IMG/VR virus record: IMGVR_UViG_3300048625_000299
Coordinates: 69,679 to 133,678 of that record
Source of the DNA: a virus
Strand: one strand, 5' to 3'
Length of the DNA: 64,000 bases
Notes under the pieces: generated by a model
Databases searched by the model: none
Told to the model about the DNA's origin: nothing
What the model saw: the letters and a program-made list of their open reading frames with translations, nothing else
Position numbers and translations under genes: made by a program
Shown here: positions 16,285-35,639 of the stretch, piece after piece
How the letters are laid out: every line of letters begins with the position of its first letter
Numbering within the stretch: position 1 is the first letter of the stretch

Positions 16285-16292
16285 TATTTATA
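16285..16292 (-). promoter_or_regulatory. T4-type late promoter element TATAAATA (minus strand) upstream of the homing endonuclease
   Basis: Minus strand reads ttttATAAATAttcacAAGGAGAactgcaATG, i.e. TATAAATA, then an SD, then ATG. Confidence 0.5.
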
Positions 16293-22046: not shown

Positions 22047-23444
22047 ATGAAACTGAGCAAAAACATTCTACTGAACACAGACAGCTACAAAGTGTCAATG
22101 TGGAAGCAATACCCTGTTGGAACAACTGGCGTATTTTCTTACATCGAATCGCGTGGCGGTCGTTATGATCAAACAGTGATGTTTGGTCTGCAAGCGTTCA
22201 TCAAGGAGTACTTACTTGACCCCATTACACAGTCCGACATCGATATCGCCGAAGAGATTCTTCTCGCACACGGAGAGCCATTTAATCGTAGCGGCTGGCA
22301 GTATATCCTCGACAAGCACGACGGATATCTCCCCGTCGTCATCCGAGCAGTCCCCGAGGGTACTGTGGTACCGGTTAAGAATGTCCTCGCAACCATCGAG
22401 AACACAGATCCCAACGTACCGTGGCTGACTACATGGCTCGAGACTCCCTTGCTTCGTGCGATCTGGTATCCAACTACTGTGGCAACACAGAGCTGGTCGA
22501 TTCGCAAAGTGATTTTGGATTATTTGGAGAAGACTGGTGACCCTGCTCTTATCGATTTTAAGTTACACGACTTTGGTGCTCGCGGTGTTAGTTCCCTTGA
22601 GTCCGCTGGCATTGGCGGCGCCGCGCACCTCGTTAATTTCATGGGTACCGATACTGTTACCGGTTTGTTGTATGCTCGTGAGTATTACAACGCTGGTATT
22701 AGTGGGTTTTCAATTCCTGCAGCCGAGCACAGCACAATCACAAGTTGGGGCCGTGACGGAGAAGTCGACGCCTACCGAAACATGCTTACAAATTTCGCTC
22801 GGCCCGGGTCCATTGTTGCAGTCGTTTCCGACAGCTACGATGTATTCAATGCCGCTAGCAAATTGTGGGGAGAAGAGCTCCGTCAGCAAGTGATTGATAG
22901 CGGTGCTACTGTAGTGATTCGTCCTGATAGTGGTGACCCTGTTGAAGTCAACCGCAAGTTGATTGAGATCTTAGGAGAAAAGTTTGGATACACTACAAAC
23001 GCCAAAGGATTCAAAGTCCTCAATAATGTTCGCCTCATCCAGGGGGACGGTGTCAATGAGTTATCCATCCGCAGTATCCTTGGGGCACTCATGGCAATGG
23101 GATGGTCGGCAGATAATATTGCATTCGGTATGGGCGGTGCCTTGCTCCAGCAAGTTGACCGAGATACCCAGAAGTTTGCAATGAAATGTTCTTCTGCGAA
23201 GATCAATGACGTGTGGGTCGATGTACAAAAAGATCCAGTCACTGATAGTGGCAAGAAGTCGAAGGCAGGTCGAGTGACTCTTTGGAAGAGTGGCGGCGAA
23301 TGGATCAGTAGCGTTGAAAAGCCAGCTGGCTGGCACGATAAAGCAACTGGTGAGTTTGTTGAAGTGCTGGAAACAGTATACGCTAACGGAAAGTTGATTA
23401 ACGAATATACATTCGACAACATCCGAGCAAGAGCTCGCAAATAA
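22047..23444 (+). CDS. nadV: Nicotinamide phosphoribosyltransferase (NAMPT/NadV)
   Basis: HDFGARGVSSLESAGIGGAAHLVNFMGTDTV is the NAMPT signature. 465 aa, typical length. Confidence 0.85.
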   Translation: MKLSKNILLNTDSYKVSMWKQYPVGTTGVFSYIESRGGRYDQTVMFGLQAFIKEYLLDPITQSDIDIAEEILLAHGEPFNRSGWQYILDKHDGYLPVVIRAVPEGTVVPVKNVLATIENTDPNVPWLTTWLETPLLRAIWYPTTVATQSWSIRKVILDYLEKTGDPALIDFKLHDFGARGVSSLESAGIGGAAHLVNFMGTDTVTGLLYAREYYNAGISGFSIPAAEHSTITSWGRDGEVDAYRNMLTNFARPGSIVAVVSDSYDVFNAASKLWGEELRQQVIDSGATVVIRPDSGDPVEVNRKLIEILGEKFGYTTNAKGFKVLNNVRLIQGDGVNELSIRSILGALMAMGWSADNIAFGMGGALLQQVDRDTQKFAMKCSSAKINDVWVDVQKDPVTDSGKKSKAGRVTLWKSGGEWISSVEKPAGWHDKATGEFVEVLETVYANGKLINEYTFDNIRARARK

Positions 23445-23979: not shown

Positions 23980-24174
23980 ATGGAATACACATTAGTGATT
24001 TGGACAGTTGTTGCTGCATTTGGTACAGGAGCTGGCACATATAGGCCGCAAGAGTATCGAGATTGGCGACCGCTAGCCGTTTTCAATAACGGTGGCGCTC
24101 AATCAATGAACCAGTGTCAGGCAGCCGCTGAACAATTAAAGCTGCAAAAGTTTGAATGTATCAGAACCAAGTGA
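23980..24174 (+). CDS. Small membrane protein with a C-terminal Cys pair (member of a three-gene family in this window)
   Basis: N-terminal TM helix LVIWTVVAAFGTGAG, then ...QCQAAAEQLK...FECI. Compare 47441-47606 and 47822-47998. Confidence 0.4.
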   Translation: MEYTLVIWTVVAAFGTGAGTYRPQEYRDWRPLAVFNNGGAQSMNQCQAAAEQLKLQKFECIRTK

Positions 24175-24184
24175 AGGAAAGAAA

Positions 24185-25225
24185 ATGCGTAAACTTGCAT
24201 CCATTCGTCGGATCGACGAACTGAACCCTATTGAGGGTGCCGACAAAATCGAAGTAGCAACCGTTGGTGGTTGGAAAGTCGTGTGTCAAAAAGGTCTCTA
24301 TAATGTCGGAGATCTTGCTGTGTACTTCGAGATCGACTCGTGGATTCCATCTGCTGTTGCTCCGTTTCTGACAAAGGACGGCCACTTCCCCAAAGTGTTC
24401 GAGGGTGTTGAAGGTGAACGTCTAAAGACAATCCGCTTGCGCGGACAATTGTCTCAAGGTCTGTTGATGCCTATACACAACGACAAGACTGGCACATATT
24501 TGATGGTCTACACAGATGAAACTGGTGAATATTCGCTGACTGTAGCCGAAGGTGATGATGTATCTGAGCCTCTTGGTATCCTGAAATGGGAGAAGGCAAT
24601 CCCTGCTCAGCTCGCTGGCATTTCTCGTGGCAACTTCCCAACTTTGATTCCAAAGACCGACCAAGAGCGTGTGCAAAACTTGAAGAAAGAGATTGCTGCT
24701 GCTCAAGGACAAGTCTACGAAGTGACGGAAAAGCTGGAAGGCTCATCGATGACTTGCTATGTAATTGATGGTGAGTTCGGAGTATGCTCCCGTAACCTCA
24801 ACCTCAAGGAAACTGAGGGCAACTCATTCTGGAATGCAGCTCGCGACAATGACCTCGAGCAAAAAATGCTTGCTCGTCAGTACGACTTTGCAATCCAAGG
24901 TGAGTTGATTGGTCCTGGCGTTCAAGGTAATATCTACAAATTGACAAAGCCTGAGTTCTATGTGTTTGACATCTATGATGTTAAGGACGGCGAGTATATG
25001 AATCCAGCTGCACGTCGTCAATTGGTTGAGTCTCTTGGCCTGAAGCATGTACCGATTCTGGACGATATGTATGTCCTTAACGATGATGTAGAACAACTGT
25101 TGACGTTAGCCGAAGGCAAGTCTAGAATGTTTGATACAGAACGAGAAGGCATCGTGTTCAAACAGAATGACGGTGGCATGACGTTCAAAGCGATCTCGAA
25201 CAAGTACCTATTAAACGAGAAGTGA
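24185..25225 (+). CDS. ATP-dependent RNA ligase, Rnl2/Rnl5-like (nick-sealing type with an N-terminal OB-like domain)
   Basis: Motif I TEKLEGSS (cf. T4 Rnl2 EKIHGTN), motif IV EGIVFKQ, motif V FKAISNKYL. The N-terminal ~70 aa resembles the OB module of Rnl5-type ligases. SD aaggaaagaaaATG at 24185. Confidence 0.7.
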   Translation: MRKLASIRRIDELNPIEGADKIEVATVGGWKVVCQKGLYNVGDLAVYFEIDSWIPSAVAPFLTKDGHFPKVFEGVEGERLKTIRLRGQLSQGLLMPIHNDKTGTYLMVYTDETGEYSLTVAEGDDVSEPLGILKWEKAIPAQLAGISRGNFPTLIPKTDQERVQNLKKEIAAAQGQVYEVTEKLEGSSMTCYVIDGEFGVCSRNLNLKETEGNSFWNAARDNDLEQKMLARQYDFAIQGELIGPGVQGNIYKLTKPEFYVFDIYDVKDGEYMNPAARRQLVESLGLKHVPILDDMYVLNDDVEQLLTLAEGKSRMFDTEREGIVFKQNDGGMTFKAISNKYLLNEK

Positions 25226-26156: not shown

Positions 26157-26723
26157 ATGGTTATGAAAACATTTATTACAAGCGATATCCATTTCGGACA
26201 CAAGAACATTATGAGCTTCTGTCCAGTATCACGTGCTCGCTTCAAGGGCGACGTGGACTACATGAACGCTCAGATCATCCAAGACTGGAACAATATGATT
26301 GGTCCAGACGACTTGGTGTATATCTTGGGCGACGTTGCATTCTGCTCATGGGAGAAGGCTGTTGGCTTCTTGCGTTCGATGAACGGTCGCAAGATTTTGA
26401 TCAAGGGTAACCATGACAGCAAGCTCGTCAAGAGTCCAGAGTTCGTTGCCTGCTTCGAAAGCATTCACGACTACTTGACAATCACATACAATGGCACTCG
26501 AGTGTCGATGTTCCACTATCCAATTGCTGAGTGGGATCAGATGCATCGAGGTGCTGTCCACTTCTATGGTCACTTGCATGGTGGCACTAGCGGATTGGAA
26601 AAGTACCGAGCAATCGATGTTGGTATGGATGGCAATATGTGCTACCCACATGACATGGATGTTGCTGTGGCAACTGCATTGAAAGGTGAAATCAAAAAGC
26701 ACCATGACAAATATGGGAACTAA
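26157..26723 (+). CDS. Calcineurin-like metallophosphoesterase (2',3'-phosphoesterase candidate of an RNA repair Pnkp)
   Basis: DIHFGH, ILGDVAF and KGNHDSK match the metallophosphatase motifs I-III. Confidence 0.75.
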   Translation: MVMKTFITSDIHFGHKNIMSFCPVSRARFKGDVDYMNAQIIQDWNNMIGPDDLVYILGDVAFCSWEKAVGFLRSMNGRKILIKGNHDSKLVKSPEFVACFESIHDYLTITYNGTRVSMFHYPIAEWDQMHRGAVHFYGHLHGGTSGLEKYRAIDVGMDGNMCYPHDMDVAVATALKGEIKKHHDKYGN

Positions 26724-26724
26724 T

Positions 26725-27195
26725 ATGAGCAAATTAAAATGCATTCAATTGGTTGGCGTGCCTGGATCAGGAAAGTCAACGTGGATTAAAACACAAACGA
26801 TGATCGACAACTTCGTTGTTGCGTCTACGGACAACTTTGTTGAGCAGCATGCTGCTAGCGAAGGTAAGACGTATAACGAAGTGTTCAAGGATTACATGCC
26901 GATTGCTGTAAGGTTGATGGCGAATCAGGTGTTAGTTGCGCAAGCGAATAACAAGAACATCATCTGGGATCAGACGTCCATGAGCGTTGCATCTCGTAAG
27001 AAGAAGTTCAACACGATTCCTAACTACGAGCACATCGCTGTTGTGTTCCCTGTTCCTGGTGAGGAAGAGCTGGCACGTCGCTTGGCAAGCCGTCCAGGAA
27101 AGTTGATTCCAGATCACGTTATGAAAAGCATGATCGATAGCTTTGAGATGCCGACCCTCGAAGAAGGGTTCACTGAAGTTCACGTGTTGCTGTAA
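26725..27195 (+). CDS. P-loop polynucleotide 5'-kinase (T4 Pnk kinase-domain-like)
   Basis: IQLVGVPGSGKSTWIK resembles the T4 Pnk N-terminal GCPGSGKST. ATG lies 2 nt after the upstream stop (track start 26686 rejected). Confidence 0.65.
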   Translation: MSKLKCIQLVGVPGSGKSTWIKTQTMIDNFVVASTDNFVEQHAASEGKTYNEVFKDYMPIAVRLMANQVLVAQANNKNIIWDQTSMSVASRKKKFNTIPNYEHIAVVFPVPGEEELARRLASRPGKLIPDHVMKSMIDSFEMPTLEEGFTEVHVLL

Positions 27196-27206
27196 GGAGT
27201 ATTGAA

Positions 27207-27467
27207 ATGGTGGTGTTTCCAAAGGAGTTCGTTGCGATTCGTTATCCAGGATACTTCTGGCACACAGTCGAGAAGCGCTTGTACACGATTAAAGTGTCTG
27301 GCGAACTCCGTCCATTGAAATTCTGCCGTGGTGGTACGTTCTATGGCAAAACAATTGAGCCTGGTTATCGTGTAAGTGTGCAAGGTGTACGTAAGAAAGT
27401 ATCGATGACCTATCTGGGTAGCATTGGCAACTCATGGGTACAACAAGAGATTCCATATGAAAGTTAA
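27207..27467 (+). CDS. Hypothetical protein
   Basis: ORF track. Confidence 0.4.
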   Translation: MVVFPKEFVAIRYPGYFWHTVEKRLYTIKVSGELRPLKFCRGGTFYGKTIEPGYRVSVQGVRKKVSMTYLGSIGNSWVQQEIPYES

Positions 27468-28344
27468 TTCAGCATCACTGAAGAAGTTCGTTGAAGAAAA
27501 TCCAAAGCTGGTATCTCGTCGTCCAGCCGGTGATGGCATCTACGTCCTGAAATACAAAAAGACTGTATTCTATGATGGTCTGTGGAACGATTACTTAGAA
27601 GAGTGTCGTGGTACGATTGTGGATGAAGATTACAACATCGTGTCATACCCATTCACGAAGGTATACAACTATGGCGTAGAAGCGAAGTCCCCTGTACTAG
27701 ATGGCAGTACGAAGATCAAAGCATACCGTAAAGTTAATGGCTTTATGGTCGCTGTAACGTGGCATAAAGACGATATCCTTGTGTCAACTACAGGATCAAC
27801 GGACTCCGATTATGTAAAAATGGCTCGTGAGTTTATCGATCGTGATTTGGATCTATACCGTGCTTGGTGTAAGGAATATTCGACATACACATTCATGTTT
27901 GAATGTGTCCATAAGGATGATCCGCACATCATTCCAGAAGTGGAAGGGATGTATTTGCTAGGACACCGTCCAAAGTTCTTTGGTTCACCAATTGGTGTGT
28001 CTGACGATATGCATAAGGCATTCAACTGCCATTCGGTTGAAGCAATTGAGTGTACGTTAGATACACTACGTTCGTTAGCTAAGACAGTGAAACACGAAGG
28101 GTTTGTATTATATACGTTGGACGGCATGATAGGCTCTAAGATCAAGAGTCCACATTACCTAGTGTCTAAGTTTGTTGCTCGTAATCCACGAACTGACAAA
28201 TTGATGCGTCCAGATGTGAAGAAGTCACTCGATGAGGAGTATTATCCATTAATCGATGCCATCCAAGCGAACATCGATGCGTATACTGCTATGGACGAAC
28301 AGACGCGATTAGCGTGGGTGAGGGAGTTTCTTTCAACTCAATGA
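27457..28344 (+). CDS. ATP-dependent RNA ligase, Rnl1-like
   Basis: Motif I RKVNGFMV (KxNG), motif IV EGFVLYT, motif V GSKIKSPHY. ATG with SD aagaga preferred over the track's TTG at 27424. Confidence 0.65.
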   Translation: MKVNSASLKKFVEENPKLVSRRPAGDGIYVLKYKKTVFYDGLWNDYLEECRGTIVDEDYNIVSYPFTKVYNYGVEAKSPVLDGSTKIKAYRKVNGFMVAVTWHKDDILVSTTGSTDSDYVKMAREFIDRDLDLYRAWCKEYSTYTFMFECVHKDDPHIIPEVEGMYLLGHRPKFFGSPIGVSDDMHKAFNCHSVEAIECTLDTLRSLAKTVKHEGFVLYTLDGMIGSKIKSPHYLVSKFVARNPRTDKLMRPDVKKSLDEEYYPLIDAIQANIDAYTAMDEQTRLAWVREFLSTQ

Positions 28345-28993
28345 GGATTCTTCTAGCAAGAGCGTTTCGCGATGCTTTGCTAGGGGAGCCAAGAATCACG
28401 ATGATGTGTTCGTTGGTCGTCATTGCGATACACCAACCTGCAGCATTAGTGAATCCAGTCTTTGACCCAGTAATATGGGTAAACTCTTTTAACAGAGCAT
28501 AGTTGGTATTTTGAATGAGGGCCAGATGAGCCCTCTTTCCTTTGGGCTCTATAACTTGAACAGTGGGTGCTGCTGCCGCTCTTATTTCTGCATACTTGGT
28601 AGCATGTGCTATTAAGATAGCGATGTCGACTGCTGTAGAAGTGTTCATGCCGAGCCCAGACGGATCGACGAACTTTGTATCATTCATTCCAAGCTGCTTT
28701 GCTTTGAAATTCATCAGATGGATGAATTGTGGTCTGCCATAGATTGCAGCCAACTTCTCGGCGGATTTGTTGTTGCTTTGTACGAGCATTGTGTCGATTA
28801 AGTAGCGATCATCGATGCCAAGTTCGATTGCTATGATTGCTGTCATCAGCTTCGTGATACTAGCTAGCGGACGTTGTGATGATTCATCTTGCTTCGCTAC
28901 TACCCGATTGTGCTTCATATCAAACACAAACACTGACTCCTTAGCGAACGCTGGCGCAGCAAGCAGCAGTAGAGTGAGTAGTAGTTTCTTCAT
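28289..28993 (-). CDS. Secreted low-molecular-weight penicillin-binding-protein-like DD-peptidase (PBP7/PbpG-like, peptidase S11 core)
   Basis: Signal peptide MKKLLLTLLLLAAPAFA. Motifs SITK (SxxK), SNN (SxN) and KTGFT (KTG). Confidence 0.75.
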   Translation of the reverse strand: MKKLLLTLLLLAAPAFAKESVFVFDMKHNRVVAKQDESSQRPLASITKLMTAIIAIELGIDDRYLIDTMLVQSNNKSAEKLAAIYGRPQFIHLMNFKAKQLGMNDTKFVDPSGLGMNTSTAVDIAILIAHATKYAEIRAAAAPTVQVIEPKGKRAHLALIQNTNYALLKEFTHITGSKTGFTNAAGWCIAMTTNEHIIVILGSPSKASRNALARRILIELKETPSPTLIASVRP

Positions 28994-29101
28994 ATATTAG
29001 TACCCCGTTTATGTCCTCCCACCTGGCGTAGTGGGATGTAGTAGGACGGGGTCACTCCTTTTACACCTGTCGTAAGTTTAACGGTCCTAAGGCAGGTATG
29101 T

Positions 29102-30766
29102 TTATAGTGCAATCTGCGACACAGTCACAATTACAGACGGAATTGCAGGACAGAAGGCAGTTGCTGCAGGAGCCGCTATGAACGCTCCAAGGTTACTGAC
29201 AGCCCACATAAGCTCAAAGTAATCGTTGGTGTTCATCGATACTTGGAAGTTCCAAGATGGAACCTTATACTCTTCGTTGCCTGTAATGGTGAGTATCGAT
29301 GCTGTGTTGGGAATATCAGCGCCATTCTTTCTCGCCCATATGTATATTTCCTTTTTAGATGCTGTTTGCGAGGTAACCTGCAATGAAAACTTATAGTCGT
29401 AGAATCCAGACGCTTCTGCTACTATTCTCGTTTCATTGATGATGTGGTGTCCATTAGAGATGTCAGGAGTGCGCATCTTCACAGCATATGGAGTGTTTAT
29501 TACGGCTGCTGTCTGGCTGAGTACATCTAAGAAGGTTCCATAATACAAACGTGGATATATCGTTGGGCGAACCAGTAATATACCATCCCCACTACCTACG
29601 TGGAGTACAGCAGCAATGCTTACTACTATATTTGGTGCGTATGGTTTGACCTTTGTTAGTTTGCCAGCCATAGTCGGGTGGACGTAGAGCAAGTCGCCTT
29701 TTACCCATACTTCTCCAACGCTCGAGCCAGTCGTATCCATATCATGCACTTTACCGTTCCATGTAGCACGACCAGTGGTATTGTTTGGTAAATCGTTTGT
29801 CAATACGCCAACAGTATACAATCCATGCACAGTACCGTTAGCGATGTGTGGGACTACGATCGGTTCGTGTGCATTAGCTTCATATACGCCAGCAAACCTA
29901 ACAACAGTACCATTAGGCATAGTAGTACCGCTCTCGTTGCGGACGCGTATGTAGTGCTCCAGACCTGTTTGTAATGTGGATCCATCAGCGTGGTGAATGT
30001 CCAAACAATCCTCATCAGGATTCCAAGCAACTTGACCTGCAACAAGACTGACGTCTGGTCCTATAGTATTGTATCTTGTTGTCTTGATTGGTCCTATATC
30101 TTCGGTGAACTGTACTTTCTTAGTCGCAGCGTCATATTCCAATACCCAGTTATCATTTGTGGTATTCATTGTGCCACGATTAACATCATCGAGGTAGCGG
30201 AATAGTACCTCACCGCCGCCAGGGCCAGCCATGCTGATTTTGCTAACCCATCCTTCAAGCAATTTCAACTTGTTTTGGATTGCCTGGATGTCCCTACCCG
30301 TAGCAGCGGGCTCTGGTTGTACGAACATCGAAGGTGCAGTTGTGTCTGTCAGTCTCTTTGCTGCTGCATCCGCCAACGATGGTGTTTCGGGCGGAGCAAG
30401 TATTGCAGACTTCTCGACCAACTCATCGAACTGTTGATCCTCAACCACTTCTTCAGTTATAGTCACTTGTCGATCATCGGATTCCGGCTTTATGGATTCA
30501 ATGTGTTCTAGGACATTGGTAAAGCGGTCAAGCAGTGCCTGCTCTTCTTCTGTTTTCTTTTTGTCTTCTGCGACGAGCTTATTGATGTCCTTAGCGAGGT
30601 CTGTGAACAGCGATTTGAACGCTGTCTTGCGCTCCTCCTGCATCGCAAGCTGTCTATCCTCTTTCAGCTGCTCTGCAGCGATTTGGTCATAGATTGACTG
30701 CTCAGTTTGTACGCCGAGCTTTTCATTCATCTTGACTATTAATCGTAATTCTTTTAGCTTATTCAT
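29102..30766 (-). CDS. Large protein with an N-terminal coiled coil and a C-terminal beta-rich domain (candidate virion fibre or adhesin)
   Basis: 554 aa. Residues 1-120 are heptad-like and charged. The C-terminal 350 aa are G/T/N/V-rich. No catalytic motif recognised. Confidence 0.5.
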   Translation of the reverse strand: MNKLKELRLIVKMNEKLGVQTEQSIYDQIAAEQLKEDRQLAMQEERKTAFKSLFTDLAKDINKLVAEDKKKTEEEQALLDRFTNVLEHIESIKPESDDRQVTITEEVVEDQQFDELVEKSAILAPPETPSLADAAAKRLTDTTAPSMFVQPEPAATGRDIQAIQNKLKLLEGWVSKISMAGPGGGEVLFRYLDDVNRGTMNTTNDNWVLEYDAATKKVQFTEDIGPIKTTRYNTIGPDVSLVAGQVAWNPDEDCLDIHHADGSTLQTGLEHYIRVRNESGTTMPNGTVVRFAGVYEANAHEPIVVPHIANGTVHGLYTVGVLTNDLPNNTTGRATWNGKVHDMDTTGSSVGEVWVKGDLLYVHPTMAGKLTKVKPYAPNIVVSIAAVLHVGSGDGILLVRPTIYPRLYYGTFLDVLSQTAAVINTPYAVKMRTPDISNGHHIINETRIVAEASGFYDYKFSLQVTSQTASKKEIYIWARKNGADIPNTASILTITGNEEYKVPSWNFQVSMNTNDYFELMWAVSNLGAFIAAPAATAFCPAIPSVIVTVSQIAL

Positions 30767-30823
30767 AGCAATTATTTATCTGTTGCCAAACACACTGGTC
30801 TACGATACAATTATTCCCATCAC

Positions 30824-30831
30824 TATAAATC
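30824..30831 (+). promoter_or_regulatory. Late-promoter-like element TATAAATC, 13 nt upstream of the 30844 ATG
   Basis: cacTATAAATcAAGGAGttttcaATG. One mismatch to the T4 late consensus TATAAATA. Confidence 0.3.
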
Positions 30832-30843
30832 AAGGAGTTTTCA

Positions 30844-31218
30844 ATGTTTTTTTTCAATTGCCGCGCAGAGCTTGATCAAGCGTTGTACGAAAACAAATGT
30901 CTTAAAGAGAAGGTCGAGCGCCTCGAGAACCGAATCATCCAGATCAATAAAGATCTCGCTGATGCTGAGAAGGCTGATGTCACCTCATCGACGTTCACAA
31001 TCGATTTCAACAAGATGGACGTGTTCTCGATCGAACGCCATATTAAAGGCGACAAAGCTGTGACTATCGTTGGCCACTTCTTGCAAGAACCTGTCAAAGT
31101 AAACAACGACGTCTTCACATTGAACAAAATCACACGCGAGTGGAATCTGTCGTGCAGCCAAGAACAGCACGAGCGCTTGGTCAAAGATTTCACTGAATTC
31201 AAGAAGAAGCAAAAATGA
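30844..31218 (+). CDS. Hypothetical coiled-coil protein
   Basis: ORF track. Confidence 0.5.
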   Translation: MFFFNCRAELDQALYENKCLKEKVERLENRIIQINKDLADAEKADVTSSTFTIDFNKMDVFSIERHIKGDKAVTIVGHFLQEPVKVNNDVFTLNKITREWNLSCSQEQHERLVKDFTEFKKKQK

Positions 31219-31391
31219 TTAGAATGATCCTGACCTTCGTGGTCCTGTTTGGTTGTTTCTTCTTCGGAATCAACGCAGTACGCCACATGAGTGGCAAAGA
31301 CCAACTTGAGTTGGCAAAGTTGATCGCACACAGTACAATGTGCTCTGTGCTTACGGTAATGGTCCTTATTGGATTCGTTATCTTGTTTTAA
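31215..31391 (+). CDS. Small two-TM membrane protein (58 aa)
   Basis: ATGA-coupled. MIRMILTFVVLFGCFFFGI ... VLTVMVLIGFVILF. Below the track cut-off. Confidence 0.4.
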   Translation: MIRMILTFVVLFGCFFFGINAVRHMSGKDQLELAKLIAHSTMCSVLTVMVLIGFVILF

Positions 31392-31409
31392 CTACCATAA
31401 AGGTATCAT

Positions 31410-31595
31410 ATGAAATATTTGGTTTTGATTCTCGCTGCAGCAGCTTTGACTGGCTGTGGTAAGATTGACCGCATGTTCGCATCATTCACTGGTGATGCAT
31501 CGAAGACGTGTGTCGATGGTGTTACGTATCTCCAGTTCACATCTGGTGCTGCTCCTCAATACACAATTGACGGCAAACTTGTTTCTTGCAAGTGA
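31410..31595 (+). CDS. Small lipoprotein
   Basis: MKYLVLILAAAALTGCGK (lipobox). Confidence 0.5.
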   Translation: MKYLVLILAAAALTGCGKIDRMFASFTGDASKTCVDGVTYLQFTSGAAPQYTIDGKLVSCK

Positions 31596-31606
31596 AAGGC
31601 AAATAA

Positions 31607-32398
31607 ATGAAACGCATTTTTATTTTGGCTACGATTTTGTTCGGGATGTTCCTGACAGGTTGTACACGTATCGAAACTGGTACAGTCGGCTTGCGTGTCG
31701 ATATGTCACGCCAGATTCAAGGCAACGAGCTGCAGCCTGGCACTTGGAACCAAACATTGATCGGTAGTGTGCTTGAATTTCAAGTACGATCGATTCCAAC
31801 AGGTTGGGAAAACCTAACCCCACAAACTGCAGACAACTCTACATTGAAAGATTTCGACGTCAACATTGTGTATGAGATCAATCCATCATCTGTCTCTGAA
31901 TTGTGGACTACACAATCACGAAGCTTTCACACATATGAGCATGGCGATTATATGTTGATGCGCAATTATATGTCTCAAGTACTGAGCTCTGCTGCAGCTA
32001 AAGCTGTCCGCAAGTACAAAGCATTGGAAGTTGCTGACAATCGTGAGAACATCGAGAAGTCGATTCACGACATCATGGTCAACATGCTAACGGAAGAAAA
32101 GCTCGAGAAAGCTCTTACTATTAGTCAGGTTCGTGTGACGAGCGCAACGCCAGCTGATGACATTGTGGCATCTGCTAATAACGCTGTCCGTGCTCAGAAC
32201 GACTTGAAGACAAAGCAAGTTGAAGTACAGATCGCTCAACAAGAAGCGATTCGTATCCAGACTCTGAACAGCAATTCGCAAGCTATTCCATACATGAACG
32301 CAATGGCTCAGATGGAAATCGCTAAAGCTATCCGTGAAGGAAAGGTACACACAATCGTCGTACCTCAAGACTTCAAGGGTATCGTGAACGTCAAGTAA
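31607..32398 (+). CDS. SPFH/band-7 (stomatin/prohibitin-like) lipoprotein
   Basis: Lipobox FLTGC. GTVGLRVDMSR...TADNSTLKDFDVNIVYEI matches the SPFH core (TkDn..v.vd..v.y.i). C-terminal coiled coil. Confidence 0.6.
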   Translation: MKRIFILATILFGMFLTGCTRIETGTVGLRVDMSRQIQGNELQPGTWNQTLIGSVLEFQVRSIPTGWENLTPQTADNSTLKDFDVNIVYEINPSSVSELWTTQSRSFHTYEHGDYMLMRNYMSQVLSSAAAKAVRKYKALEVADNRENIEKSIHDIMVNMLTEEKLEKALTISQVRVTSATPADDIVASANNAVRAQNDLKTKQVEVQIAQQEAIRIQTLNSNSQAIPYMNAMAQMEIAKAIREGKVHTIVVPQDFKGIVNVK

Positions 32399-32415
32399 AC
32401 AACAACGAGGTCGAT

Positions 32416-33150
32416 ATGAATCAAAATGTATTCCGTGCGGTATTTGGTCTGGGGGCAGTTGCAATTCTTGCAATCCTTGCTCCAATCATCTGGGCCGCGG
32501 CAAGCGCTGGCGTTGGACTGATTGCACTCGGTGTTATCGGCCTCGTTGGTATGGGCTTCATCCAAGCAATCCCATTGTTTGGACAGAAGATTGAAAACCG
32601 AATCCTTAAAGCTCGCAAGGCTGAGGCTCGTGAGAATCCGATCGAACAGTTACAAAACTTCTTGCGCCAAAAGGCTCAACAGGTTGCAGACTTTAAAACT
32701 GCAGTGACGTCGATTAACGCTCAGATCAAATCGTTGCAAGACATGGTTGCGCAGCGTAAGAAGGAACGTCCTGGATATGACGCATCTGCTCAAGAGAAGT
32801 CAATCCAAGCGATGATCGAAGCATACAATGCATTGAAACAAAAGTACGTTAACGCTGAGAATGCTCTTGCTGAATTGAAGATTGCAATTCAGGATAAGGA
32901 ATTTGAATGGAAGTTTAGCCAAGCTGGCCAAGCAGCAATGCAAAGCCTGAGTGCTTCGTCCGGTAAGGACTTGATGGAAGCGATGTTGGCAGACGAAGCA
33001 TTGAGCTCTGTGACGTCTAACTTCAACCAAGTATTCGCTGAATTAGAAATGGAAGCGCAAAACTTGACCAGTGCAAAGCAACTGAGCTTTGATTCTGGAA
33101 TGACGATCGATGTATCCGCAATTAACCTGTCAGCAAAGGTGCCAGCATGA
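32416..33150 (+). CDS. Inner-membrane protein (two N-terminal TM helices) with a long coiled-coil domain
   Basis: AVFGLGAVAILAILAPIIWAAASAGVGLIALGVIGLVGMGFIQAI, then heptad-rich sequence. Confidence 0.55.
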   Translation: MNQNVFRAVFGLGAVAILAILAPIIWAAASAGVGLIALGVIGLVGMGFIQAIPLFGQKIENRILKARKAEARENPIEQLQNFLRQKAQQVADFKTAVTSINAQIKSLQDMVAQRKKERPGYDASAQEKSIQAMIEAYNALKQKYVNAENALAELKIAIQDKEFEWKFSQAGQAAMQSLSASSGKDLMEAMLADEALSSVTSNFNQVFAELEMEAQNLTSAKQLSFDSGMTIDVSAINLSAKVPA

Positions 33151-33434
33151 ACGTATTGAAACCATTCTTAGTATTTTGGGTCCTAGTTGCCTTGTCCGTT
33201 GCTGCCTTCGCTAAAGGCGGAGGTGGCGGAGGTGGTCATGGGGGTGGTGGGCATAGTAGTGGCAGCCACGCAAGCAGCCATTCATCTAGCAGCCACACGA
33301 CATCTACAGCAAAGTCAGCACCCGCTCCAGCTCCTGTTGTAGTTCAACCAGTCCGTCCAACTCCGGTTGCCGTTCCACCAGCACGTGGGGGACAATCGGA
33401 AGAAGAAAAACGCAAGAAGCAACAAGCAAAGTAA
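33147..33434 (+). CDS. Secreted Gly/His/Ser-rich, Pro-rich low-complexity protein
   Basis: Signal/TM LVFWVLVALSVAAFA, then GGGGGGGHGGGGHSSGSHASSHSSSSH and PAPAPVVVQPVRPTPVAVPP. ATGA-coupled. Confidence 0.5.
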   Translation: MNVLKPFLVFWVLVALSVAAFAKGGGGGGGHGGGGHSSGSHASSHSSSSHTTSTAKSAPAPAPVVVQPVRPTPVAVPPARGGQSEEEKRKKQQAK

Positions 33435-33587
33435 AGGTGTAGCATGGACTTCTATAAAGTGTTAAAATATACGCTGTCGGTAGTGTTCATCATTATCGTT
33501 GGCTTAGCGATGGCAAGCATCGACGATGGCGCATCGCAACCAGTTTCTCAACAACCTCAAACCAAGTTCAACTTCTAAGGAACAAAC

Positions 33588-34508
33588 ATGAAAAAGTATG
33601 TAATTGCAACATTGCTCGCTTTGAGCACACTTGGTGCATGTGCCGCACCAGCCAACGACGCTCCTGCTGCTGATTGCGATGGCGTCAAGTTCGCGACTGG
33701 TCCTAAGGGCAAAGGCTACTCCACTCTGTATGCAGACTTGAATAAGCTGCTTGGTGGCAAGGTCGCGATGTGTGAATTGAACACAACTGGTGGTCTGGAC
33801 AACTTGAACGCATTGTCGACCAAAGATGCTGACATCGGCATCGTTCAAATCGATACATGGAACGACATGAAGAATGGCGACGAAAACATCGCCAACCTGC
33901 AAGCAGTGATGCCATTGAATAGCAACTACTTGCACATCGTTACATCAGTTAATGGTATCCAAGGTGAAAAGAAATTCGGCTTGATCAAGGGCGACGTCAA
34001 GATGATCAACCGCTTCAGCGATCTTCGCGGTCAACGAGTAGCAGTTGTTGGTTCTGCCCAATTGCTTGGCCGTAAGCTCGAGAAATCTGTTGGCTATGGT
34101 ATGCAGTTCATTGACTCTAAGTCTGATGCTGAAGCGTTCGACATGGTCCGCAAGGGTCAAGTTGCGGCAGCAATGACCGTCAGCGGCTGGCCTTCTGGCA
34201 CCGTCAAGCAACTGAGCCAAGCTGATGGTCTGACTCTGGTACCGTTTGATGCTCCTATCGGTGAGCCATACAAAGTGAAAGCGCTGAACTACAAGAACAT
34301 CGCTGTGTATAACAACAACTCACTGGCAATCCCTAACGTGTTGGTTTCTCGTTCATTCTCTGGTCAACGTGCAGCAAATGTTGCAGCAATCCAAGCTGGC
34401 ATCGTACGTAACCTGACTGAATTGAAAGAAGGCAACTACCAACCAGCTTGGAACGAAGTCAACCCGAATGCAGCCATCAACGGTATGGCTAAGTTCAAGG
34501 CAAAGTAA
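33588..34508 (+). CDS. TAXI-family (TRAP-associated) periplasmic solute-binding lipoprotein
   Basis: Lipobox TLGAC. CELNTTGGLDNLNALSTKDADIGIVQIDTW resembles the TAXI signature (TGGtgG.y...g.....ADla.vQ.D). Confidence 0.55.
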   Translation: MKKYVIATLLALSTLGACAAPANDAPAADCDGVKFATGPKGKGYSTLYADLNKLLGGKVAMCELNTTGGLDNLNALSTKDADIGIVQIDTWNDMKNGDENIANLQAVMPLNSNYLHIVTSVNGIQGEKKFGLIKGDVKMINRFSDLRGQRVAVVGSAQLLGRKLEKSVGYGMQFIDSKSDAEAFDMVRKGQVAAAMTVSGWPSGTVKQLSQADGLTLVPFDAPIGEPYKVKALNYKNIAVYNNNSLAIPNVLVSRSFSGQRAANVAAIQAGIVRNLTELKEGNYQPAWNEVNPNAAINGMAKFKAK

Positions 34509-34682
34509 GATAACCCCCGCAGTGTGCGTAAGGGCAACGTCAATAAGTCCCTTCCGATAATATGCAAGGAATCTTAATCTCAATTGGTCTGATCACGTTT
34601 GCAACCGTATTCGTGATTTCCGCATATAAGTCAGTCGCTAAGCTGACTGAACAACACAACCAAAGCACAAGAGCAGAATAAC

Positions 34683-35639
34683 ATGGAACAAAAAGTGAAA
34701 CGTGGCTTCAAGCGCAAGACGATCGAACAAACAATCCGCAACAAAATGAAGGGTTGGTTTGCATCGATTGACGATATTGAGTTGCGTGACGAATTGAAGA
34801 AGCACTACATCGTCACTGGTGGCGCAATCACTTCGATGTTGCTTGGTGATTTGCCTAACGACTACGATGTGTATATCGATAATGTCGACACAGCAGCAAA
34901 GCTCGCAAACTACTACGTCAGCCGTTTGCCATCGTCTGACAACGAATGCACGAAGACTCCAATCGTCTCTGTTCCACCAGAAGGTGGTCGTGTCGAGATT
35001 AAGGTCCAATCTGCTGGCATTGCTGGTGAAGAAATCGACCAAGATGGATATGAGTACTTCGAGATGTATCCAGACGCGACTAGTCGCACCATGGCATACC
35101 TGGAAGGCGCTGCAGCGAAGAGCACAGGCAAATATACTGCACTTGCAATCACAACAAACGCAATTACGCTGTCTGATCAAGTTCAAGTGATCTTGCGGTT
35201 CGTTGGTCCTGCAAATGAGATCCACAAGAACTACGACTTTGTCCATACGACAAACTACTTCACTGAAGAAGAAGGCGTTATGTTCCAACAGGATGCATTG
35301 GAATCTATCCTTGCTCGTGAATTGAAGTATGTTGGTAGCCGCTATCCAATCTGCTCATTGTTCCGCATCAAGAAGTTCATCAAGCGTGGTTGGACAATCA
35401 CTGCTGGTGAAATGTTGAAGATCGCATATGATGTTGCGAAGCTCGACCTCGACAATCCAGTTGTGTTGCAAGATCAACTGACTGGCGTTGATGCTGCATA
35501 CTTTAATCAGATCCTCCGACTGATCAAAGAAGAGAACAAGCCGATCGAACGTACATACTTGTTCGAATTGATTAACCGTGTATTCGATGAAGACGACGAC
35601 ATCGATGCAGCTGCAGAAGGAACGACAGATGTTCAATAA
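34683..35639 (+). CDS. Pol-beta-superfamily nucleotidyltransferase of the CCA-adding / poly(A)-polymerase head-domain type (PF01743-like)
   Basis: IVTGGAITSMLLGDLPNDYDVYI matches the class-II tRNA-NT motif (vGGaVRD.LLG....D.D). ALAITTNAI resembles the RRDFTINA motif. Confidence 0.6.
   Translation: MEQKVKRGFKRKTIEQTIRNKMKGWFASIDDIELRDELKKHYIVTGGAITSMLLGDLPNDYDVYIDNVDTAAKLANYYVSRLPSSDNECTKTPIVSVPPEGGRVEIKVQSAGIAGEEIDQDGYEYFEMYPDATSRTMAYLEGAAAKSTGKYTALAITTNAITLSDQVQVILRFVGPANEIHKNYDFVHTTNYFTEEEGVMFQQDALESILARELKYVGSRYPICSLFRIKKFIKRGWTITAGEMLKIAYDVAKLDLDNPVVLQDQLTGVDAAYFNQILRLIKEENKPIERTYLFELINRVFDEDDDIDAAAEGTTDVQ

What the first reader, a model, noticed from the sequence alone, without database searches (positions are those of the whole stretch)
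28289..34508. Envelope-targeted gene block: secreted PBP7-like DD-peptidase, SPFH lipoprotein, membrane coiled-coil protein, Gly/His/Ser-rich secreted protein and a TAXI solute-binding lipoprotein
Within 6 kb there are at least seven proteins predicted to leave the cytoplasm. The first is a signal-peptide DD-peptidase with the SxxK/SxN/KTG triad, on the minus strand. It is accompanied by a large coiled-coil/beta-rich protein, also on the minus strand. The remaining five are on the plus strand: two small lipoproteins, an SPFH/band-7 lipoprotein, a two-TM coiled-coil protein, a GGGHGGGGHSSGSH low-complexity secreted protein, and a TAXI-family substrate-binding lipoprotein with no cognate TRAP permease. 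SPFH plus a membrane partner resembles bacterial NfeD/stomatin or HflK/C membrane scaffolds. An orphan TAXI binding protein and a peptidoglycan DD-endopeptidase are very unusual cargo for a lytic phage. Possible roles are superinfection exclusion, periplasmic sensing, peptidoglycan remodelling for DNA injection or lysis timing, or hijacking a host TRAP transporter.
Basis: partly seen in the sequence, partly recalled or inferred. Interest (0 to 1): 0.7.

Follow-up and report, generated by a model that had tools for sequence, protein, structure and literature searches.

The report
Phage envelope genes with captured host cassette
This stretch of a large T4-like phage is not one system: it holds a tail-fibre gene with a secreted cell-wall peptidase, a membrane-scaffold gene pair, and an uncharacterised three-gene cassette (membrane coiled-coil protein, tiny membrane peptide, transporter-less TAXI binding protein) that also sits in Burkholderiales chromosomes and in unrelated giant phages of those bacteria.

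Summary
The ORFs are real and the three family assignments hold: Peptidase_S11, SPFH/Band_7 and TAXI. Eight of ten consecutive ORFs carry export or membrane signals.

The block is a composite, not one system.
1. Minus strand: a tail-fibre gene (554 aa, not exported) followed by a secreted PBP7-like DD-peptidase. Two relatives show the same order.
2. Plus strand: a 58-aa two-TM protein plus an SPFH lipoprotein. This pair recurs in at least five other phage lineages.
3. Plus strand: a two-TM coiled-coil protein (244 aa), a 44-aa single-TM peptide ending in KFNF, and a TAXI-fold periplasmic protein.

The third unit is the main result. The triad is syntenic in many uncultured phages and in Ralstonia phage RP12, and spread over six genes in phiRSL1. 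It is also syntenic in 66 of 69 bacterial loci, nearly all Burkholderiales, at host GC and never with a TRAP permease. The peptide's C-terminal motif changes with the TAXI clade.

I infer a membrane complex in which the binding protein docks on the peptide tail. Its function is unknown. The "TAXI lipoprotein" and one of the two "small lipoproteins" are not supported. Interest is moderate to high: a new variant of a binding-protein system, with cultured models available.

The parts
28289..28993 (-). Secreted PBP7-like S11 DD-peptidase, 234 aa. Signal peptide MKKLLLTLLLLAAPAFA|KE.
   Evidence: Pfam PF00768 at 1.5e-31. Solved structures 6azi and 6muq at 3e-26, with SITK, SNN and KTG aligned and about 25 aa deleted after residue 63. 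Motif positions. It follows a fibre gene in L002 and L021 as well.
28994..29101 (-). Conserved structured non-coding element between the fibre gene and the S11 gene. It forms two hairpins.
   Evidence: About 75 nt are almost invariant in the window, L003, L002 and L030, although the flanking proteins are only 52-69% identical. Both stems show compensatory changes. There is no Rfam hit. MFE -34.9 kcal/mol, z -2.2.
29102..30766 (-). Tail fibre (receptor-binding) protein, 554 aa. Conserved N-terminal 217 aa with an exchangeable C-terminal half.
   Evidence: PHROG tail fibre at 5.6e-5. The N-terminus is 57% identical to a 1097-aa fibre-like ORF in L002 and 52% to one in L030. The C-terminal half is 53% identical to a Limnohabitans phage DC31 protein and 27-38% to annotated tail fibre or tail proteins (Rollin, Nitrincola 1M3-16, CRP-6, MW202674). 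Separate hits over residues 237-552 carry cerebellin/C1q-like annotation.
30767..30843 (.). 77-bp divergent intergenic region. It holds the best sigma-70-like site of the region (TTGCCA-17-TACAAT, 30783-30811, + strand) and an AAGGAG ribosome-binding site before 30844.
   Evidence: Promoter-like sites in the region are not more frequent than in shuffles, so this is weak evidence.
30844..31218 (+). Cytoplasmic 124-aa protein with an N-terminal coiled coil. First gene of the plus-strand run.
   Evidence: No TM segment or signal. It has 41-42% homologues in L002, before the 59-aa TM protein and SPFH gene, and in L020, directly before the Band_7 gene.
31215..31391 (+). 58-aa two-TM hairpin protein, the conserved partner of the SPFH lipoprotein.
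   Evidence: Homologues lie immediately upstream of SPFH in L002, L003, L004 and L010. A 58-aa protein of the same architecture occupies that position in BUCT-ZZ01 (no sequence match tested). Analogous small TM proteins precede SPFH in phages B23, PhT2 and XC38.
31410..31595 (+). 61-aa lipoprotein (LTGC lipobox, two further conserved Cys). A lineage-specific insert.
   Evidence: phrog_7772 at 2.6e-14. The Cys is kept in L003 (LTAC) and in pf16 gp67 (LAGC, 52% identity). It is absent from L002 and L010.
31607..32398 (+). SPFH/Band-7 lipoprotein, 263 aa, predicted to face the periplasm.
   Evidence: Pfam Band_7 at 8.7e-15 and phrog_200 'lipoprotein' at 4.7e-31. Homologues in 32 phage records. 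Lipobox Cys conserved.
32416..33150 (+). tmcc244: inner-membrane hairpin (two TM, N-in and C-in by the positive-inside rule) with a cytoplasmic helical-hairpin coiled coil. First gene of the cassette.
   Evidence: The family has 643 clusters at 50% identity and no Pfam or NCBIfam family. The AF2 model shows a TM hairpin at 3-56 and helices at 75-117 and 124-178. It is adjacent to TAXI in 66 of 69 bacterial loci.
33147..33434 (+). Gly/His/Ser/Pro-rich secreted or signal-anchored 95-aa protein. A lineage-specific insert inside the cassette.
   Evidence: Signal-like N-terminus ...AAFA|KGGG. Found only in L003, at 72% identity. Absent between tmcc and the peptide in every other locus.
33444..33578 (+). 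tm44: 44-aa single-TM peptide (N-in) with a periplasmic tail ending ...QTKFNF-COOH. Second gene of the cassette.
   Evidence: A peptide of this kind lies between tmcc and TAXI, or before TAXI, in 68 of 81 rows scanned (the window itself and duplicate records of the same contigs included). The C-terminal motif is specific to each clade and follows the TAXI clade.
33588..34508 (+). Orphan TAXI-fold periplasmic binding protein, 306 aa, with two invariant Cys (C30, C62). Third gene of the cassette.
   Evidence: Pfam NMT1_3 at 1.2e-11. TIGR02122 gives 58.9 bits, below its 84.35 cut-off. Foldseek: solved TAXI binding proteins are five of the top seven chains, including the top three. 444 homologues. 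The signal-peptidase-I site is conserved and the lipobox is not.

Best explanation
The 6.2-kb block is a composite of three independent modules in the early region of a roughly 235-kb T4-like phage. The host is probably a freshwater betaproteobacterium.

(i) Late-type cassette on the opposite strand. A tail fibre with a swappable receptor-binding half is followed by a Sec-exported, catalytically intact PBP7-like DD-peptidase. I infer that the peptidase acts on the peptidoglycan of the infected cell, not from the virion.

(ii) Two-gene membrane-scaffold pair. A 58-aa two-TM protein is paired with a periplasm-facing SPFH lipoprotein. The pair is widespread in phages.

(iii) Three-gene cassette: tmcc244, tm44 and TAXI. 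It is shared with Burkholderiales chromosomes and with unrelated large phages of those hosts.

Proposed mechanism for (iii), inferred and not shown. The TAXI-fold protein is exported as a soluble periplasmic protein. It docks on the conserved C-terminal tail of the tm44 peptide, whose free C-terminal carboxylate takes the place of the usual organic-acid ligand. tm44 packs against the TM hairpin of tmcc244, and the cytoplasmic coiled coil of tmcc244 oligomerises. The result is a trans-membrane complex, not a transporter. The phage makes it early, in several lineages next to an SPFH scaffold and in two next to rIIA/rIIB. Its purpose would be to replace or override the host's own version and so control the state of the inner membrane and periplasm during infection.

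Shown: the families, the synteny, the phyletic distribution, the host-like GC of the bacterial copies, and the link between tail motif and TAXI clade. Inferred: topology, physical contacts, timing and physiological role.
For: Composite nature.
- L002 keeps S11, the fibre N-terminus, cc124, tm58 and SPFH, but lacks lpp61, tmcc, GHS95, tm44 and TAXI.
- L004 and BUCT-ZZ01 keep only the small two-TM protein and SPFH.
- L006, L009 and L014 keep only tm44 and TAXI. L007 keeps tmcc, tm44 and TAXI.

Module (i).
- S11 motifs and family.
- S11 lies directly downstream of large fibre-like genes in L002 (1097 aa) and L021 (1440 aa, 2-nt gap).
- Fibre homologies.

Module (ii).
- A small TM protein lies immediately upstream of SPFH in the window, L002, L004, L010, L018, BUCT-ZZ01, B23, PhT2 and XC38.

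Module (iii).
- tmcc, a small TM peptide and TAXI are syntenic in L010, L018, L020, L019, L007 and the distant L024.
- Ralstonia phage RP12 carries them as ORF195-194-193. In phiRSL1 tmcc (ORF096) lies three genes upstream of the peptide-TAXI pair (ORF100/101).
- 66 of 69 bacterial genome loci have the pairing. They include cultured Massilia, Duganella, Paucibacter and Ramlibacter.
- Local GC in the seven loci measured equals host GC (0.59-0.73). In the two loci scanned, the flanks are ordinary chromosomal genes with no permease.
- Peptide tail motifs are KFNF/KNFNF, GT(T/K/Q)GL or AP..(V/I)(R/H), according to TAXI clade. In L019 tmcc has diverged to 28% identity, while TAXI (70%) and the QTKFNF tail are kept.
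- In L025 tmcc is fused in frame to a different secreted partner.
- Every TAXI copy of this cassette that was scanned scores below the TIGR02122 cut-off.
- Three non-orthologous SPFH proteins sit directly upstream of tmcc in different phages.
- rIIA/rIIB lie directly upstream in L018 and L014.
Against: - No physical interaction was tested.
- The link between tail motif and TAXI clade follows clades that are each probably monophyletic. It may therefore reflect shared descent. L019 is the only discordant-rate case.
- The TAXI model is only moderately confident (pLDDT 70, low over residues 202-247). I did not examine ligand-site residues.
- Early or late timing rests on strand and on one promoter-like site. 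Such sites are no more frequent here than in shuffles.
- SPFH is next to the cassette in only about 4 of 10 phage lineages, and never in bacteria.
- L006, L009 and L014 lack an adjacent tmcc.
- The target and timing of the S11 peptidase are unknown.
Confidence: 0.45

Rival explanations
1. Auxiliary metabolic gene. The TAXI protein is a normal solute-binding protein (glutamate or another organic acid). It plugs into a host TAXI-TRAP or GltS-type permease to raise nutrient uptake during infection, as cyanophage PstS does with the host Pst transporter. The neighbouring membrane genes would be unrelated.
For: The TAXI fold is clear and the nearest solved structures bind glutamate. Binding proteins can work with permeases encoded elsewhere, and TAXI can use a non-TRAP partner (PMC12344293). 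The cyanophage PstS precedent is from my own knowledge. NAD-salvage and other metabolic genes lie in the same window.
Against: This TAXI subfamily is flanked by tmcc and the tail peptide in 66 of 69 bacterial loci. No permease was seen next to it in any locus examined. It scores below the TIGR02122 cut-off. The triad survives transfer into three unrelated phage lineages. In L025 and L026 tmcc pairs with a non-binding-protein secreted partner.
Confidence: 0.15
2. Superinfection exclusion or lysis-timing set. The early envelope proteins (lpp61, SPFH pair, tmcc-tm44-TAXI, GHS95) block DNA entry by later-arriving phages, or sense them and delay lysis. This would be analogous to T4 Imm/Sp and RI/rII, or to T5 Llp next to its receptor-binding gene.
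For: These are membrane and periplasmic proteins on the early strand of a T4-like phage. The cassette lies directly after rIIA/rIIB in L018 and L014. A small lipoprotein is transcribed divergently from the fibre gene, as with T5 llp and oad (my knowledge). lpp61 is present with this fibre type (window, L003) and absent in L002, which has a different fibre tip.
Against: The cassette is also a resident chromosomal unit in non-prophage contexts of Burkholderiales, so it has a cellular function. The lpp61 homologue in pf16 is not near a fibre gene. There is no match to known Sie, Imm, Sp or RI families: only one PHROG 'Sie-like' hit at E 0.0078, on the low-complexity protein.
Confidence: 0.2
3. 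Lysis cassette. The 58-aa two-TM protein is a holin, the 61-aa lipoprotein an o-spanin, the 244-aa coiled-coil protein an i-spanin, and the S11 peptidase the endolysin.
For: The sizes and features look superficially right: a small two-TM protein, a small lipoprotein, a TM protein with a coiled coil and a cell-wall hydrolase all lie within 5 kb.
Against: The tmcc coiled coil is predicted to be cytoplasmic, because both flanks of the TM hairpin are positively charged. tmcc is fixed next to TAXI in bacterial chromosomes. tm58 is fixed next to SPFH across phages. lpp61 is not adjacent to tmcc and occurs alone in pf16. S11 is on the other strand, behind the fibre gene.
Confidence: 0.05
4. No functional links at all. 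The block is a hypervariable 'moron' dump in which unrelated accessory genes for exported proteins have accumulated.
For: Gene content between the conserved flanks (RNA ligase, p318) differs strongly between the window and L002. lpp61 and GHS95 are lineage-specific.
Against: Gene pairs and the triad recur across distant phages and bacteria. Conservation is high: TAXI and tmcc are 60-99% identical across the 120 best of 444 and 449 homologues.
Confidence: 0.1

Closest known systems
TAXI-family TRAP solute-binding proteins (VcGluP/VC0430 8s4j and 9ibo; Thermus GluBP 1us4 and 8u79; Ehrlichia 4ddd)
   Same: Same two-lobe fold (Foldseek E 3e-13 to 6e-11, TM about 0.6). Pfam NMT1_3 above its cut-off. 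Sec signal peptide.
   Different: About 17% identity. Below the TIGR02122 cut-off. No TRAP Q/M membrane gene nearby, in phage or bacterial copies. Always paired with a coiled-coil hairpin membrane protein and a tail peptide.
TAXI-GltS system of Bordetella pertussis (PMC12344293)
   Same: A TAXI binding protein from a member of the Burkholderiales that lacks a TRAP membrane partner and is operonic with a different membrane protein.
   Different: There the partner is a bona fide GltS secondary transporter, and the binding protein is an elongated dimer with an extra domain. Here the partners have 2 and 1 TM helices and cannot plausibly be a carrier.
Cyanophage PstS (a phage-borne orphan binding protein that uses the host Pst transporter); recalled from my own knowledge
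   Same: A binding protein carried by a T4-like phage without its permease.
   Different: PstS is a close copy of the host transport protein and needs no phage partners. The present protein comes with two dedicated membrane partners.
SPFH with membrane-partner operons (NfeD-stomatin/QmcA-YbbJ, HflK/HflC)
   Same: An SPFH-domain protein is encoded next to a small membrane protein. Its periplasmic orientation matches that of HflK/C.
   Different: The anchor is a lipid, not a TM helix. The partner is a 58-aa hairpin with no NfeD OB-fold or ClpP domain. There are no NCBIfam or PDB sequence hits.
PspA/Vipp1/ESCRT-III membrane-remodelling proteins
   Different: The scores are not significant. hhalign gives 0.7% probability. 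tmcc has a true TM hairpin in place of an amphipathic helix.
E. coli PBP7 (PbpG) class of S11 DD-endopeptidases (6azi, 6muq)
   Same: The three catalytic motifs. A single domain without the PBP5 C-terminal domain. A signal peptide.
   Different: About 70 residues shorter, with a deletion of about 25 aa. It scores 108 bits against the 294-bit equivalog cut-off. It is phage-encoded and lies behind a tail-fibre gene.
T4 rII/Imm/Sp/RI and T5 Llp envelope proteins (recalled from my own knowledge)
   Same: Small membrane and periplasmic proteins made early by large lytic phages. The cassette is next to rIIA/rIIB in two lineages.
   Different: No sequence or profile similarity was found.

Membership tests
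Peptidase S11 / PBP7-type DD-endopeptidase | Profile match above the family threshold | tested here: met
   Pfam PF00768 gives 110.1 bits against a 27.6 cut-off. Solved structures 6azi and 6muq match at 3e-26 and 1.6e-22.
Peptidase S11 / PBP7-type DD-endopeptidase | Catalytic SxxK, SxN and KTG motifs | tested here: met
   S45ITK48, S73NN75 and K178TG180. They align to the motifs of 6azi and 6muq.
Peptidase S11 / PBP7-type DD-endopeptidase | Equivalog-level identity with PbpG (NCBIfam PRK11669 cut-off) | tested here: not met
   108.5 bits against a 294 cut-off. It is a divergent, shortened relative, not an ortholog.
Peptidase S11 / PBP7-type DD-endopeptidase | DD-peptidase activity and beta-lactam binding | not testable with these tools
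   Needs Bocillin labelling and muropeptide analysis.
SPFH / Band 7 | SPFH domain profile above threshold | tested here: met
   PF01145 gives 55.6 bits against 23.6. phrog_200 at 4.7e-31.
SPFH / Band 7 | Membrane attachment | tested here: met
   Lipobox LTGC. The Cys is conserved in L002, L004, L010, L018, BUCT-ZZ01, PhT2 and XC38. This rests on a regex and hydropathy heuristic only.
NfeD-SPFH or HflK/C operon | NfeD (OB-fold, with or without a ClpP domain) partner, or an HflK/HflC pair | tested here: not met
   No NfeD, HflK or HflC hit for any ORF in the block. The conserved partner is a 58-aa two-TM peptide.
TAXI TRAP solute-binding subunit | Sequence profile | tested here: inconclusive
   Pfam NMT1_3 gives 45.2 bits against 27, which is met. 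TIGR02122 gives 58.9 bits against 84.35, which is not met.
TAXI TRAP solute-binding subunit | Two-lobe TAXI fold | tested here: met
   Solved TAXI binding proteins are five of the top seven Foldseek chains, including the top three (E 3e-13 to 6e-11, TM about 0.6). Model pLDDT is 70.
TAXI TRAP solute-binding subunit | Cognate TRAP (fused Q-M) membrane component in the operon | tested here: not met
   None in the block, and no ORF of 150 aa or more in the window exceeds 554 aa. No permease was seen in any related phage or bacterial locus examined.
TAXI TRAP solute-binding subunit | Binds a small organic acid | not testable with these tools
   Ligand-site residues were not analysed. Binding assays are needed.
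Bacterial lipoprotein (claim for the TAXI protein and the 58-aa ORF) | Conserved lipobox Cys | tested here: not met
   TAXI: the Cys is present only in the window. L003 has Tyr and the other 26 homologues have AxA|AP. tm58: the Cys is absent in four homologues. For lpp61 and SPFH the feature is met.
PspA/Vipp1/ESCRT-III (for tmcc244) | Profile or significant fold similarity | tested here: not met
Phage tail fibre (for the 554-aa protein) | Homology to tail fibres, with a conserved N-terminus and a swapped C-terminus | tested here: met
   phrog_30742 at 5.6e-5. Matches to annotated tail fibre or tail proteins, and separate matches annotated cerebellin/C1q-like. N-terminal 217 aa are 52-57% identical to longer fibre-like ORFs whose C-termini differ.
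Spanin/holin lysis cassette | An i-spanin with a periplasmic coiled coil next to, or embedding, an o-spanin lipoprotein | tested here: not met
   The coiled coil is predicted to be cytoplasmic. The lipoprotein is separated from it by the SPFH gene. Both have other fixed partners.

The most novel reading that the evidence does not exclude
The tmcc, tail-peptide and TAXI triad is a previously undescribed kind of binding-protein-dependent trans-membrane device. The 'ligand' of the TAXI binding protein would be the free C-terminus of a dedicated membrane peptide, or the peptide tail would compete with a periplasmic small molecule. The signal or force would pass to a cytoplasmic, PspA-like coiled coil. 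Burkholderiales would use it for envelope sensing or maintenance. At least three unrelated lineages of large phages (T4-like, phiKZ-like, phiRSL1-like) would have captured it to take over that function. In T4-like phages they placed it beside rIIA/rIIB and SPFH scaffolds, for example to sense superinfection or envelope damage and set lysis timing.
Probability: 0.2. Interest if true: 0.8.

Novelty: new variant of a known kind. Interest (0 to 1): 0.6.

Why it matters
TAXI binding proteins are treated as transporter subunits, and only one non-TRAP partner (GltS) has been described. Here a whole TAXI subfamily is fixed next to two small membrane proteins that cannot form a carrier. That holds for hundreds of phage sequences and dozens of Burkholderiales genome records. 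The fold therefore seems to have been recruited for something other than uptake.

The cassette has entered three unrelated lineages of large phages. This suggests it gives direct control over the host envelope. Its position beside rIIA/rIIB and SPFH scaffolds offers a route into how T4-like phages manage membrane integrity, exclusion and lysis timing.

Cultured systems exist in which it can be tested: Ralstonia phages phiRSL1 and RP12, and Massilia, Duganella and Paucibacter isolates.

The secreted S11 DD-peptidase behind the fibre gene is a second, smaller novelty. It is a cell-wall enzyme class not known among characterised phage lysis or entry proteins.

Tried and rejected
- Megablast of the block against 50,697 phage records found nothing, so this is a novel phage.
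- PADLOC defence models gave only noise-level coiled-coil hits.
- PDB sequence searches for tmcc and SPFH gave nothing significant.
- I tried to learn what Pfam PF27870 'T1-F' is. It appears only as a weak precomputed hit on some tmcc homologues. It is not in the local Pfam copy, and a literature search was uninformative.
The docking hypothesis is therefore untested.
- The T5 Llp-like idea for lpp61 (a lipoprotein beside the receptor-binding gene): its pf16 homologue is not near a fibre gene. Demoted to speculation.
- T4 late-promoter motif TATAAATA: one copy in 64 kb, at chance level and not in the block.
- Rfam on 28000-35000: no hit.
- The AFDB fold library was unavailable.
- Literature searches for phage SPFH and phage TAXI function found only statements that the function is unknown.

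Full report
**What the window is.** The window has no near-identical relative among 50,697 phage records. It nevertheless encodes typical large-phage early functions: ATP-dependent DNA ligase, NAMPT, an NMNAT/Nudix enzyme, two RNA ligases, a Pnk-like kinase and a phosphoesterase. Almost all genes are on the + strand. The block's own TAXI and tmcc proteins occur on metagenomic contigs of 235-238 kb. Related contigs carrying the same genes encode gp45, gp44, RegA, rIIA/rIIB, SegE, RNase H and phage DsbA. The phage is therefore a T4-like, jumbo-sized phage.

The fibre's receptor-binding half is 53% identical to a protein of Limnohabitans phage DC31. The closest bacterial S11 and cassette homologues are betaproteobacterial. 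A freshwater member of the Burkholderiales is the likely host. This is an inference.

**Checking the observation.** The ORFs are as described.
- Pfam supports Peptidase_S11 (1.5e-31), Band_7 (8.7e-15) and NMT1_3/TAXI (1.2e-11), all above their gathering scores.
- The S11 protein carries S45ITK, S73NN and K178TG. These align to the catalytic motifs of solved PBP7-type endopeptidases 6azi and 6muq.
- The TAXI assignment is confirmed by fold. An AF2 model (pLDDT 70) gives solved TAXI binding proteins as five of its top seven Foldseek chains, including the top three.
- A simple hydropathy and lipobox script finds export or membrane signals in 8 of 10 consecutive ORFs. That is improbable by chance (p about 0.002 under an assumed 30% background).

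Three details are wrong.
- The 58-aa ORF is a conserved two-TM hairpin whose 'lipobox' Cys is not conserved.
- The TAXI 'lipobox' is a single Tyr-to-Cys difference from the 99%-identical relative L003. All 26 other aligned homologues have an AxA|AP signal-peptidase-I site.
- The 554-aa protein is a tail fibre without a signal peptide.

**The block is a mosaic.** I compared it with related contigs.
- L003 is 87-99% identical at the protein level for all block genes except the low-complexity GHS95 (72%), and keeps everything.
- L002 keeps S11 (69%), the fibre N-terminus (57%), cc124, tm58 and SPFH (95%). It lacks lpp61, tmcc244, GHS95, tm44 and TAXI.
- L004 and phage BUCT-ZZ01 share only a 58-aa two-TM protein in the same position, plus SPFH.
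- L006, L009 and L014 share only tm44 plus TAXI. L007 shares tmcc plus tm44 plus TAXI.

The block therefore resolves into separable units.

**Unit 1: tail fibre plus secreted DD-peptidase (minus strand).**
- The fibre has a conserved N-terminal 217 residues and an exchangeable C-terminal half. Parts of that half match annotated tail fibre and tail proteins and proteins annotated cerebellin/C1q-like.
- S11 lies directly behind fibre-like genes of 554, 1097 and 1440 aa in three phages.
- Only about 11 close S11 homologues exist. More distant compact S11 proteins (35-38%) occur among early genes of other T4-like and jumbo contigs.
- Cultured phage records have essentially none.
- The protein has a cleavable Sec signal, so it cannot be a virion component. 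I infer that it trims or cleaves peptidoglycan cross-links of the infected cell. Its purpose (lysis aid, cell enlargement, receptor or exclusion effect) is open.

**Unit 2: tm58 plus SPFH lipoprotein.** A small hydrophobic protein (50-90 aa, one or more TM segments) lies immediately upstream of the SPFH gene in every lineage I examined. These are the window, L002, L004, L010, L018, BUCT-ZZ01, 'Synechococcus' phage B23, the T4-like Acinetobacter phage PhT2 and the N4-like XC38. The arrangement resembles the bacterial rule of an SPFH gene with a membrane partner. The partner, however, has no NfeD domain. The literature states that the function of phage SPFH proteins is unknown (PMC7760394).

**Unit 3: the tmcc244, tm44 and TAXI cassette.** This is the main result.
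- Both large proteins belong to big, highly conserved families. TAXI has 444 homologues and tmcc has 449, and the 120 best of each are 60-99% identical to the window proteins. A profile search finds 643 tmcc clusters at 50% identity. tmcc has no Pfam or NCBIfam family.
- The order tmcc, small TM peptide, TAXI recurs in different T4-like contigs (L010, L018, L020, L019, L007). It also recurs in a distant small phage contig (L024, with tmcc at E about 1e-21).
- The phiKZ-like Ralstonia phage RP12 carries it as ORF195-194-193. In Ralstonia phage phiRSL1 tmcc (ORF096) lies three genes upstream of the peptide-TAXI pair (ORF100/101).
- A scan of one genome per bacterial species found 69 loci. Nearly all are Burkholderiales, including cultured Massilia, Duganella, Paucibacter and Ramlibacter. 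In 66 of them tmcc is adjacent to a TAXI homologue.
- In the seven bacterial loci measured the cassette has host GC (0.59-0.73). In the two loci scanned, the flanks are ordinary and variable chromosomal genes, with no phage genes and no TRAP permease.
- A 41-66 aa single-TM peptide lies between tmcc and TAXI, or before TAXI, in 68 of 81 rows scanned; these include the window itself and duplicate records of the same contigs. It begins M.FW+.L+W in the bacterial copies and M(D/N/Q)F(Y/W/H).. in most phage copies. It ends in a clade-specific motif: K(K/N)FN(F/L) or TKFNF, then GT(T/K/Q)GL, then AP..(V/I)(R/H). The motif changes with the TAXI clade.
- In L019 tmcc has diverged to 28% identity, while TAXI (70%) and the QTKFNF tail are retained.
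- In L026 and L025 a distant tmcc is paired with, or fused in frame to, a different secreted beta-rich protein.
- Every TAXI copy of the cassette that was scanned falls below the TIGR02122 cut-off.

**Mechanistic reading of unit 3.**
- By the positive-inside rule both ends of tmcc are cytoplasmic. Its confident helical hairpin (75-117 and 124-178) therefore lies in the cytoplasm.
- tm44 is N-in, with a periplasmic tail of about 15-40 residues. TAXI is a soluble periplasmic protein with two invariant Cys.
- The only sizeable periplasmic partner for the conserved tail is TAXI, and TAXI and TRAP binding proteins are carboxylate binders. I therefore propose that TAXI docks on the peptide's C-terminus, giving a trans-membrane complex with tmcc. 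This is an inference.
- Two membrane partners with 2 and 1 TM helices are unlikely to form a carrier. TAXI genes are normally operonic with TRAP membrane genes, and the one described exception uses GltS (PMC12344293). The transport reading is therefore weakened but not excluded.
- The resemblance of tmcc to PspA, Vipp1 or ESCRT-III is not statistically supported.

**Links between units in phages.**
- Three non-orthologous SPFH proteins sit directly upstream of tmcc in different phages. They are the window-type lipoprotein, a 27%-identical lipoprotein in L018, and a 447-aa flotillin-like protein in L020 with an N-terminal TM helix and a predicted cytoplasmic orientation.
- cc124 homologues also accompany them.
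- In L018 and L014 the cassette follows rIIA/rIIB.
- These juxtapositions suggest a shared theme of inner-membrane organisation. They occur in only about 4 of 10 phage lineages and not in bacteria.

**Lineage-specific inserts.** lpp61 is a true small lipoprotein. It has homologues in Pseudomonas phage pf16 and in Campylobacter CP220-like phages. The Gly/His/Ser-rich protein is found only here and in L003.

**Expression.** The plus-strand genes are spaced -4 to +18 nt apart. They are preceded by the best sigma-70-like site of the region, in the 77-bp divergent gap. Such sites are no more frequent here than in shuffles, so timing remains inferred.

**Verdict.** The ordinary parts are a tail fibre, an SPFH pair of a known PHROG family, and a small lipoprotein. 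The notable parts are a conserved, unannotated cassette that re-uses the TAXI fold without a transporter and is shared between Burkholderiales and three unrelated phage lineages, and a secreted S11 DD-peptidase coupled to a fibre gene.

Noticed in passing
window 28994-29101 (- strand); also L002 3278-3392, L003 about 4776-4890, L030 about 2060-2200: A non-coding element of about 100 nt lies between the tail-fibre stop and the next gene. It is almost invariant (about 75 nt) across four phages whose flanking proteins are only 52-69% identical. It folds into two hairpins with compensatory changes in both stems. In L030 the downstream gene is not S11, so the element goes with the 3' end of the fibre gene. 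No Rfam match. It can also be read as a 21-codon upstream ORF overlapping the S11 start (ATGA), but that frame is broken in L002.
   Followed up: partly
window 42559-43317 (+): A 252-aa protein matches Pfam Acb3, a CBASS inhibitor, at 5.4e-29. It is a likely anti-defence gene.
   Followed up: no
window 26157-28344 (+) and 24152-25225 (+): An RNA-repair set: a calcineurin-like phosphoesterase, an AAA_33 (Pnk-like) kinase, a T4 Rnl1-type RNA ligase and a second RNA ligase. The S11 gene's 3' end overlaps the convergent RNA ligase gene by 56 nt (28289-28344).
   Followed up: no
window 17731-18750 and 22047-23444 (+): An NAD salvage pair, NMNAT/Nudix and NAMPT. The NAMPT is 60% identical to those of Acidovorax phage ACP17 and Ralstonia phage RsoM2USA. 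The same pair lies just downstream of the TAXI cassette in phiRSL1.
   Followed up: partly
window 16285-16292 (-), upstream of ORF 15601-16266 (-): The only exact T4 late-promoter consensus (TATAAATA) in the 64 kb lies 18 nt upstream of another isolated minus-strand ORF (221 aa). One match is what chance predicts.
   Followed up: no
L010 9879-11111 (NCBI JACCDG011823158.1): In a related phage, two ClpP-like protease genes lie two genes downstream of the SPFH, tmcc, tm and TAXI run. One has a weak NfeD1b_N hit. A Bax1-I family membrane protein lies further on. This may be relevant to SPFH and NfeD biology.
   Followed up: no
L025 620-2323 and L026 5001-7344: Distant tmcc homologues are paired with, and in L025 fused in frame to, a secreted beta-rich protein of about 350 aa that has no Pfam family, in place of a TAXI protein. 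This suggests the periplasmic partner of tmcc is exchangeable.
   Followed up: partly
L101 3909-5434 (Ralstonia phage RP12 ORF192 and ORF191): Immediately after the RP12 cassette lie a protein that looks like a secreted ABC-type binding protein and a multi-TM protein that looks like a permease. This is judged from the sequences and from the published annotation 'ABC transporter subunits'. No profile search was run.
   Followed up: no
window 31410-31595 (+); L027 4001-4183: The 61-aa lipoprotein family (three conserved Cys) occurs sporadically in unrelated T4-like phages: Pseudomonas pf16 gp67 at 52% identity and the Campylobacter CP220 group at 33%. Its function is unknown.
   Followed up: partly
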